NCBI RefSeq assembly: GCF_009914755.1 | Contig: NC_060934.1 | From: the human T2T-CHM13v2.0 reference genome, Homo sapiens | DNA: 64,000 nt | Reading direction: 5' to 3' (one strand) | In this document: one piece after another, positions 15,414-15,758 of the stretch | Position numbering within the stretch: the first letter of the stretch is position 1 | Layout of the letters: each line of letters opens with the position of its first letter | Position numbers and translations under genes: made by a program | The notes under the pieces: model-generated | Told to the model about the DNA's origin: nothing | What the model saw: only the letters and a program-made list of their open reading frames with translations | Databases searched by the model: none

Positions 15414-15758
15414 TTTTTTCTTTTTTTTTTTTTTTTTTTTGAGATGGAGTCTTGCTCCGTCACTTAGGCTGGAGTACAGTGGTGCGGTATCAGCACACTG
15501 CAATCTCCGCCTCCCAGGTTCAAGTGATTCTCCTGCCTCAGCCTCCCAAGTACCTACTAATTCAAAGCCTTATGCTATGCTTAGGTGCTATTACTACCCA
15601 TTTACAGCAATTTGCGCTCGCTAATTTTTTGTATTTTTAGTAGAGATGGGGTTTCGCCATGTTGGCCAGGCTGGTTTCAAACTCTTGACCTCAAGTGACC
15701 TGCCTGCCTCTACCTCCCAAAGTGTTGGGATTATAGGCATGAGCTGCTGCACCCGGCC
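15414..15758 (-). mobile_element. AluS interrupted by the micro-NUMT
   Basis: Alu sequence stops at cccaagta (15552) and resumes at gctaatttttt (15620). Confidence 0.9.
15553..15619 (+). pseudogene. Micro-NUMT: 67-bp fragment of mitochondrial ND5 inside an Alu
   Basis: Non-Alu insert translates [20 protein letters not shown] with a 1-bp frameshift, matching the ND5 segment [22 protein letters not shown] recalled from human mtDNA. Confidence 0.85.

What the first reader, a model, noticed from the sequence alone, without database searches (positions are those of the whole stretch)
15553..15619. Mitochondrial ND5 fragment patched into the middle of an Alu (micro-NUMT repair scar)
Seen: the Alu stops at gcctcccaagta, about 30 bp of consensus (gctgggattacaggc...) is missing, and 67 foreign bases are in its place before gctaattttt resumes. 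The insert reads CTA CTA ATT CAA AGC CTT ATG CTA TGC TTA GGT GCT ATT ACT ACC, then after a 1-bp gap TTT ACA GCA ATT TGC GCT ([21 protein letters not shown]). Recalled: human MT-ND5 has [23 protein letters not shown], and many other mammals have FTAICAL. By eye the identity to human mtDNA is roughly 75%, mostly third-position transitions. Inference: ancestral primate mtDNA was captured during double-strand-break repair with target deletion and no TSD, after the AluS inserted. This bounds its age and preserves a fossil of ancestral ND5. Being short, diverged and inside a masked Alu, it may be missing from NUMT catalogues.
Basis: partly seen in the sequence, partly recalled or inferred. Interest (0 to 1): 0.75.

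Follow-up and report, generated by a model that had tools for sequence, protein, structure and literature searches.

The report
Catalogued ND5 mitochondrial patch inside Alu
A 67-base piece of the mitochondrial ND5 gene fills a 32-base gap inside an Alu repeat in an intron of EPC1; it is a real but ordinary scar of DNA-break repair and is already listed in a recent catalogue of such insertions.

Summary
Window 15553-15619 (+) is 67 bases of mitochondrial ND5 sequence. It lies inside an antisense S-type Alu, where exactly 32 Alu consensus positions are missing.

- All 12 PDB sequences matched at E<=10 are ND5.
- The only other genome match is a large NUMT on chr4 at 68.05 Mb, 86% over 63 bases, E 3e-11.
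- The insert aligns to the same ND5 position in 30 of 30 other ND5 NUMTs.

It is most likely not a copy of the chr4 NUMT. Its differences from that NUMT fall mainly on third codon positions: 8 of 12, P=0.019, against even spreads in two known nuclear duplicate pairs.

Its nearest relatives are NUMTs that Tsuji et al. 2012 dated to after the rhesus split and before the orangutan split. The source mtDNA was therefore roughly of stem-catarrhine to stem-hominoid age.

It is not new. A 2026 pangenome NUMT map lists it as fixed, numt_73.chrM:13144-13211, chr10:32317552-32317617. It is absent from the 2012 hg18 list. Interest is low.

The parts
15414..15552 (-). 3' part of an S-type Alu: the A-tail, seen as poly-T 15414-15440 with one C, plus the right arm. 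It ends at ...gta.
   Evidence: sequence. (alignment with 32 other Alus of the window). (15 mismatches to the window consensus in this arm). The S-type assignment rests on recalled diagnostic motifs, not on a call.
15553..15619 (+). 67-bp NUMT: a fragment of mitochondrial ND5 in sense orientation on the + strand, covering codons about 271-293. It is catalogued as numt_73.chrM:13144-13211.
   Evidence: Catalogue row.
15599..15600 (+). Remnant of a Leu codon that lost one base. This frameshift is private to this copy: 0 of 30 other NUMTs have it.
15573..15573 (+). T where 27 of the 30 other NUMTs have C; only L014 shares the T. With the following G kept, this looks like an ACG-to-ATG CpG transition after insertion.
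   Evidence: state counts. The direction of the change is inferred.
15620..15759 (-). 5' part of the same Alu (rest of the right arm, the A-rich linker and the left arm), resuming 32 consensus positions beyond the left piece.
   Evidence: 17 mismatches to the window consensus.

Best explanation
A double-strand break occurred inside an already resident S-type Alu in the EPC1 intron, in a catarrhine or stem-hominoid ancestor. About 32 bases of Alu were lost from the ends. A free 68-base fragment of mitochondrial DNA (ND5, about m.13,145-13,213) was then ligated in as filler by non-homologous end joining, with no target-site duplication and at most one base of junction homology. After that the patch decayed as neutral intronic DNA, acquiring one 1-base deletion and one probable CpG transition, and it is now fixed in humans. 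It has no expected function.

Shown: the ND5 identity, the 32-base deletion, the anatomy of the junctions, and its relatives among other NUMTs.
Inferred: the break, the end-joining pathway and the date.
For: - ND5 identity. An independent catalogue assigns chrM:13144-13211.
- Alu was there first, with a deletion: 32 consensus columns are missing between colinear arms of one Alu.
- No duplication flanks the patch (by eye; one search lists none).
- Junctions: the Alu ends in A and the base before the fragment is A in many NUMTs, giving at most 1 base of homology on the left and none on the right (by eye).
- The mechanism is documented for primate NUMTs. In Hazkani-Covo & Covo 2008, 41 of 90 insertions carried target deletions, and joins were blunt or used short microhomology (PMC2567098, passages).
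- Direct mitochondrial template rather than a nuclear copy:
  - INS versus the chr4 NUMT has 12 substitutions, 2/2/8 by codon position (P=0.019), with 10 transitions.
  - Two pairs of nuclear duplicates give 12/13/12 and 8/7/8.
  - Independent captures are strongly biased to third positions.
  - At 8 of the 13 differing columns the insert carries a state seen in 15 or more of the other NUMTs.
  - The first four bases differ from chr4 at all four positions but match many other NUMTs.
- Date:
  - The rare AGC codon at 15566-15568 is shared only with chr4 (L003) among the first 30 NUMTs. The G at its second position is also present in L033 and L034.
  - The tree groups INS with L033 (91/79) and L003 (84/47), next to the young clade.
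  - Tsuji et al. date those two to ages c and b.
- Fixed in humans: 'fixed' means AF >= 95% in that study.
Against: - No empty pre-insertion site could be inspected, because no other primate genome is available here. The break, the deletion and the date are therefore inferred from one filled allele.
- The donor mtDNA is unknown, so junction homology is only approximate.
- The codon-position test has only 12 substitutions, was devised after the alignment had been seen, and gives P=0.019.
- The AU test cannot reject placing the insert with the young clade (p=0.33) or in a wider clade with L034 (p=0.31).
- The insert's terminal branch (0.09-0.18) is longer than neutral decay over 20-35 My would give. 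With 67 bases this is noise-prone.
- A 32-base deletion is larger than most reported for NUMT insertions.
Confidence: 0.85

Rival explanations
1. The patch was copied from an existing nuclear NUMT (the chr4:68.05 Mb NUMT, a relative of it, or a lost copy) by templated or ectopic repair, not from free mitochondrial DNA.
For: The chr4 NUMT is the only other genome match to the insert (86% over 63 bases). It shares the rare AGC codon. About 10% divergence between two nuclear copies after 30-40 My is within sampling error of the 9 differences seen in 64 aligned positions (the rates are recalled).
Against: - The differences are biased to third positions (2/2/8), unlike nuclear duplicate controls.
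- Most of the insert's differing states are common states of other NUMTs.
- Four of four leftmost bases differ from chr4.
- The AGC state also occurs in L033, and its G also occurs in L034. These are separate loci, so the state belonged to the mitochondrial lineage of that era.
- No flanking homology was seen: the whole-genome match ends within the insert.
Confidence: 0.07
2. The filler was a cDNA of ND5 mRNA (RNA-mediated capture at the break), not mitochondrial DNA.
For: The fragment lies wholly inside one mitochondrial transcript. Nothing in 67 bases tells DNA from cDNA.
Against: There is no poly(A), no transcript end and no editing signature. Large NUMTs that span tRNAs and several genes, such as chr4, show that DNA transfer is the common route. 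This is established knowledge and was not tested here.
Confidence: 0.05
3. The resemblance to ND5 is due to chance, or two separate Alu fragments happen to flank unrelated DNA.
For: The PDB match on its own is weak (best E 0.27).
Against: Whole-genome E is 3.1e-11. Orthologous hits occur in 26 of 30 ND5 NUMTs. All 12 of 12 PDB matches are ND5. An independent catalogue calls the same bases. The Alu arms are colinear with exactly 32 consensus columns missing.
Confidence: 0.01

Closest known systems
numt_73.chrM:13144-13211, a fixed NUMT in the long-read pangenome NUMT map (Nat Commun 2026, PMC13179385, Supplementary Data 3)
   Same: It is the same object: chr10:32317552-32317617 on T2T-CHM13, + strand, chrM 13144-13211, type 'fixed', present in GRCh38. 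In window terms this is about 15553-15617.
   Different: The passages and the row I saw say nothing about the Alu host, the 32-base deletion, the junctions or the age. The stored file is cut, and Supplementary Data 8-9 on primate sharing were not seen.
NUMT-mediated double-strand-break repair by NHEJ (Hazkani-Covo & Covo 2008, PMC2567098)
   Same: mtDNA acts as filler, with no target-site duplication, blunt or very short microhomology joins, and possible loss of target bases.
   Different: There, 49 of 90 events lost no base and most deletions were small; here 32 bases were lost. Their events were checked against empty sites in sister species, which I could not do.
chr4:68.05 Mb NUMT (hg18 chr4:65155737-65160200; Tsuji et al. 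2012, age b)
   Same: It is the nearest sequence relative: 55/68 globally and 86% locally. It shares the rare AGC codon and several other states.
   Different: It is a 4.5-kb NUMT spanning mt 9467-10837 and 13037-16167. It differs from the insert at 13 of 68 columns, mostly third codon positions. I matched it to the Tsuji row by chromosome, strand and mt range, not by lift-over.
NUMTs lying within retrotransposons (Tsuji et al. 2012, PMC3467031)
   Same: This is a NUMT straddled by the two halves of one retrotransposon.
   Different: [quoted passage not shown] This NUMT is not in their hg18 list, so it is not one of those ten.

Membership tests
NUMT (nuclear mitochondrial DNA segment) | Significant sequence homology to mitochondrial DNA | tested here: met
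   Tested indirectly, because no chrM is held. E 3.1e-11 to the ND5 part of a large NUMT. Orthologous blastn hits in 26 of 30 ND5 NUMTs. All 12 of 12 PDB matches are ND5. The catalogue assigns chrM:13144-13211.
NUMT (nuclear mitochondrial DNA segment) | Embedded in nuclear chromosomal sequence | tested here: met
   It is flanked on both sides by one Alu inside an EPC1 intron on chr10 of a gapless assembly (gene table supplied with the finding).
NUMT (nuclear mitochondrial DNA segment) | No longer a functional coding sequence | tested here: met
   It is a 67-base fragment with a 1-base deletion that shifts the frame.
NHEJ filler capture at a double-strand break | No target-site duplication; target bases lost or kept; 0 to a few bases of junction homology | tested here: met
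   32 Alu consensus columns are deleted. No direct repeat flanks the insert. There is at most 1 base of homology on the left and none on the right (the donor is approximated by other NUMTs).
NHEJ filler capture at a double-strand break | An intact (empty) site in an outgroup species | not testable with these tools
Secondary nuclear copy of an existing NUMT | A near-identical donor NUMT with shared nuclear-era mutations or shared flanks; differences spread evenly over codon positions | tested here: not met
   The best nuclear relative is 86% identical over 63 bases and the match does not extend into the flanks. Differences are 2/2/8 by codon position, against 12/13/12 and 8/7/8 in true nuclear duplicates.
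AluS subfamily (host element) | Subfamily-diagnostic positions | tested here: inconclusive
   It aligns over its full length with 32 other Alus. Divergence from the window consensus is 12.7% overall and 8.7% at non-CpG sites, rank 23 of 33. The S-type call itself rests on recalled diagnostic motifs, since no repeat library is available.

The most novel reading that the evidence does not exclude
The patch may not have been taken from a mitochondrion. It could have been copied, by templated break repair, from a nuclear NUMT of the chr4/chr10:2.23 Mb type. That would make it a nuclear-templated insertion that only looks like a fresh NUMT. A milder version: together with three other NUMTs it records a short-lived Ser (AGC) state at one ND5 codon (residue 275 by my count) in the stem-hominoid mitochondrial lineage.
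Probability: 0.07. Interest if true: 0.3.

Novelty: already known. Interest (0 to 1): 0.12.

Why it matters
It matters little beyond bookkeeping. The locus is a clean, small textbook example of mitochondrial DNA used as filler in break repair. Its host Alu gives it a built-in upper age bound, and it belongs to the uncommon class of NUMTs lying inside a retrotransposon (10 of 557 in Tsuji et al. 2012). It shows that short, diverged NUMTs inside masked repeats were missed by an older catalogue but are found by current pangenome methods. As a 67-base fossil it adds only a few informative sites to the history of primate ND5.

Tried and rejected
- Direct alignment to mtDNA. The held assembly has 24 contigs and no chrM. 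I used NUMTs of known age as proxies instead.
- Supplement of the T2T NUMT paper PMC10671835. The stored text is cut and holds only mitogenome accession headers. My terms for this locus gave no occurrence, and terms for two positive-control loci gave none that was a coordinate. That catalogue could not be checked.
- Alu target-site duplication. No convincing flank repeat was found. An 8-base match between the Alu's left flank (15407-15414) and the insert (15588-15595) is taken as chance.
- First tree. It put INS with L003 on a long stem (0.081) at a three-way node. I suspected saturation or long-branch effects. I did not run the planned trees with one of the two long-branch clades left out; instead I added shorter NUMTs and dropped five poorly behaved or short rows (L030, L031, L032, L036, L037) for the second tree.
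- The 1-kb ND5 extraction was not used for a tree, because the 67-base row would have fallen under the 10% fill limit.
- AU tests could not discriminate between placements (p 0.31 and 0.33).
- A first PDB query of the chr4 NUMT was in the wrong frame and failed. It was redone in frame.
- Chance resemblance and 'two unrelated Alu pieces' were considered and rejected.

Full report
**What is there**

On the + strand the window shows a poly-T run (15414-15440) followed by the reverse complement of an Alu from 15441. The Alu stops at ...gta (15552). Sixty-seven non-Alu bases follow (15553-15619), and the Alu resumes at 15620 and runs to about 15759.

I aligned this element with 32 other near full-length Alus found in the same window (blastn; MAFFT). 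The two arms are colinear parts of one element, and exactly 32 consensus columns are absent between them (283 consensus columns, 251 outside the insert).

Outside the insert the Alu differs from the window's majority consensus at 32/251 positions (12.7%), or 19/219 (8.7%) at non-CpG positions. That is rank 23 of 33, a middle-aged to oldish copy. Mismatches split 15 in the left piece and 17 in the right, as expected for one element.

By recalled diagnostic motifs it is an S-type Alu. No repeat library was available to test this.

The gene table supplied with the finding places the site in the EPC1 intron between exons 14206-14382 and 18288-18447. The Alu is in sense and the ND5 fragment in antisense relative to EPC1.

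**Is the insert mitochondrial ND5?**

Yes.
- Frame 2 of the insert reads [15 protein letters not shown] and frame 1 ends in FTAICA.
- A phmmer search of the 22-residue frame-2 translation against 177,635 distinct PDB sequences returned 12 sequences at E<=10, and all 12 are named NADH-ubiquinone oxidoreductase chain 5 / ND5. The stretch aligns to residues 272-286 of chain 5xtc_l. The best E there is only 0.27, so this alone is weak.
- At the DNA level, a whole-genome search with the 67 bases found two places: the insert itself and chr4:68047304-68047367, at 86% over 63 bases, E 3.1e-11.
- That chr4 place lies in a multi-kilobase NUMT. By eye it runs COX3, tRNA-Gly, ND3, tRNA-Arg, ND4L and the start of ND4, then jumps to mid-ND5 and on to ND6.
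- The translation of its ND5 part matches mammalian ND5 chains at E about 1e-27.
- Using 441 bases of that NUMT as a probe, I collected 30 ND5-bearing NUMT loci (57 matches in all).
- The insert gives blastn hits at the orthologous ND5 position in 26 of these 30. There was no orthologous hit in L007, L012, L017 or L025.
- Added to their MAFFT alignment, the insert is 45-55 of 68 columns identical to each of the 30.

The assembly held here has 24 contigs and no chrM, so I could not align to mtDNA itself. Two NUMTs serve as near-modern proxies. L007 matches a row that Tsuji et al. 2012 class as age f. L035 (chr13:12.17 Mb) groups with L007 in the tree. They give 49/68 and 50/68, i.e. 72-74%.

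**Anatomy of the patch**

Relative to the other NUMTs the insert lacks one base of a Leu codon, so two bases remain at 15599-15600. None of the 30 shares this.

It has T at 15573, where 27 of the 30 others have C and one has T. With the following G this looks like a post-insertion CpG transition; the direction is inferred.

No direct repeat flanks the patch.

On the left, the last Alu base is A, and the base preceding the fragment is A in many NUMTs. At most one base of homology is therefore possible there. On the right there is none (by eye; the donor is unknown).

**Mechanism**

The pattern is a foreign fragment, loss of target bases, no duplication and blunt or 1-base joins. This is what Hazkani-Covo & Covo (2008, PMC2567098; passages read) describe for primate NUMTs captured by non-homologous end joining. 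In their 90 events, 41 had target deletions (12 of a single base) and 49 had none. Of 152 junctions, 53 used at least 2 bases of microhomology and 99 were blunt.

A 32-base loss is therefore on the large side but of the same kind. I infer a break within the Alu, limited resection, and ligation of a free mtDNA fragment.

**Direct capture or copy of a nuclear NUMT?**

The nearest one is not near-identical. However, 86% could still fit two nuclear copies that separated 30-40 My ago, so I tested the pattern of differences.
- INS versus the chr4 NUMT: 12 substitutions, 2/2/8 by codon position (binomial P=0.019 against one third), with 10 transitions and 2 transversions.
- Two pairs that are evident nuclear duplicates give even spreads: 12/13/12 (chr7:57.41 and 57.44 Mb) and 8/7/8 (chr2:130.7 and 131.8 Mb).
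- Pairs of independent captures are strongly biased to third positions, for example chr4 versus L007: 22/13/58.

Column by column, at 8 of the 13 differing columns the insert carries a state present in 15 or more of the other NUMTs. At five of these (15555, 15571, 15592, 15601, 15603) chr4 instead carries a state seen in members of the young clade.

The four leftmost bases differ from chr4 at all four positions but match many other NUMTs.

The rare AGC codon at 15566-15568 is shared only with chr4 among the first 30 loci. It recurs in a separate NUMT at chr10:2.23 Mb (L033), and its G also appears in one at chr13:53.1 Mb (L034). It was therefore a state of the mitochondrial lineage at that time, not a nuclear mutation of one copy.

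I take this as good, though not decisive, evidence for an independent capture. The test is small and was devised after I had seen the alignment.

**Date**

The host Alu sets an upper bound. S-type Alus are anthropoid-age by established knowledge; this is recalled, not tested here.

For a finer estimate I used the phylogenetic ages in the hg18 table of Tsuji et al. 2012 (PMC3467031; supplement file 3 and methods passages). I matched rows to my loci by chromosome, strand and mt range, not by lift-over.

| hg18 row | Age class | My locus |
|---|---|---|
| chr4:65155737-65160200 | b (after rhesus, before gibbon) | L003 |
| chr10:2267883-2268054 | c (after gibbon, before orangutan) | L033 |
| chr5:99409541 | d | L009 |
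| chr4:16672598 | e | L032 |
| chr5:134286898 | f | L007 |
| chr5:93928917 | f | L012 |
| chr10:36761805 | a (after mouse, before rhesus) | L006 |

In a maximum-likelihood tree of 31 rows (I left out L030, L031, L032, L036 and L037 as long-branched or short), the insert groups with L033 (support 91/79) and then with L003 (84/47). This group is sister to the young clade L007/L035/L009/L012 (84/81). The 20-odd other NUMTs lie below. An earlier tree without the short NUMTs paired the insert with L003 at 79/73.

AU tests cannot reject holding the insert with the young clade (p=0.33) or in a clade with L003, L033 and L034 (p=0.31). Sixty-seven bases carry little power.

Site by site, the insert keeps the commoner, older-type state at several third positions where chr4 already has the young-clade state. 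I therefore place the source mtDNA around or somewhat before the chr4 capture. That is roughly stem-catarrhine to stem-hominoid, on the order of 20-35 My (the figure in years is recalled calibration, not a call).

**Is it known?**

Yes. Supplementary Data 3 of the long-read pangenome NUMT paper (Nat Commun 2026, PMC13179385) lists row 68, numt_73.chrM:13144-13211: chr10 32317552-32317617, + strand, source 'reference', type 'fixed', present in GRCh38. In window terms that is about 15553-15617.

In that paper 'fixed' means allele frequency of at least 95%, and fixed NUMTs range from 38 bp upward (passages). The mt coordinates agree, to within a base or two, with what the PDB residue numbers imply, given the recalled ND5 start.

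The hg18 list of Tsuji et al. has no chr10 entry between 30.89 and 33.35 Mb, so it was missed there.

The supplement of a T2T NUMT survey (PMC10671835) is stored cut and could not be checked. The great-ape T2T NUMT paper (PMC13629686) was seen only in a search listing, and its supplements are not held.

Both Tsuji et al. (10 of 557 NUMTs within a retrotransposon) and the 2026 paper (fixed NUMTs rarely within SINEs) indicate that a NUMT inside an Alu is uncommon. It is not a new kind of event.

**Verdict**

The feature is a genuine, fixed, short NUMT that patched a break inside an Alu. It is an ordinary product of a known mechanism and is already catalogued.
- the exact 32-base deletion;
- the junction anatomy;
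- evidence for direct mitochondrial capture rather than a nuclear copy;
- a rough date from NUMTs of known age.

The decisive check, the orthologous site in other primates, could not be run here.

Noticed in passing
L025 = G000:C2:238010902-238014318 (matches at C2:238012821-238013732): An ND5-derived unit of about 61 bases, corresponding to positions 19-80 of the 441-base probe, is repeated head to tail about 15 times next to a chr2 NUMT. The copies are 82-85% identical to the chr4 NUMT. This is a NUMT-derived tandem array. The 2026 pangenome paper mentions NUMT-derived VNTRs, but I did not check whether this one is among them.
   Followed up: no
L002/L003 = G000:C4:68045553-68048993: The chr4 NUMT joins the start of ND4 directly to mid-ND5, an internal loss of about 2.2 kb of mtDNA. 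This agrees with the two mt ranges in Tsuji's row. Its ND5 frame carries an in-frame TAA at L002 1483-1481 and one extra residue relative to the PDB ND5 chains.
   Followed up: partly
L004/L005 (G000:C7:57.41 and 57.44 Mb) and L008/L011 (G000:C2:131.8 and 130.7 Mb): These are two pairs of ND5 NUMTs that are nuclear duplicates of each other. They are sister rows with 97-100% support, and their differences spread evenly over codon positions, 12/13/12 and 8/7/8. They served as controls.
   Followed up: partly
window 15407-15414 and 15588-15595: An exact 8-base direct repeat links the left flank of the Alu and the inside of the ND5 patch. It is most likely chance. No convincing target-site duplication of the Alu itself was found.
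   Followed up: partly
L027, L028, L029 (G000:C3:109.6 Mb, C13:83.8 Mb, C23:68.6 Mb): These three ND5 NUMTs form a well-supported clade (100/99). Their terminal branches (0.16-0.18) are much longer than the median (0.06), which suggests they are the oldest captures in the set.
   Followed up: no
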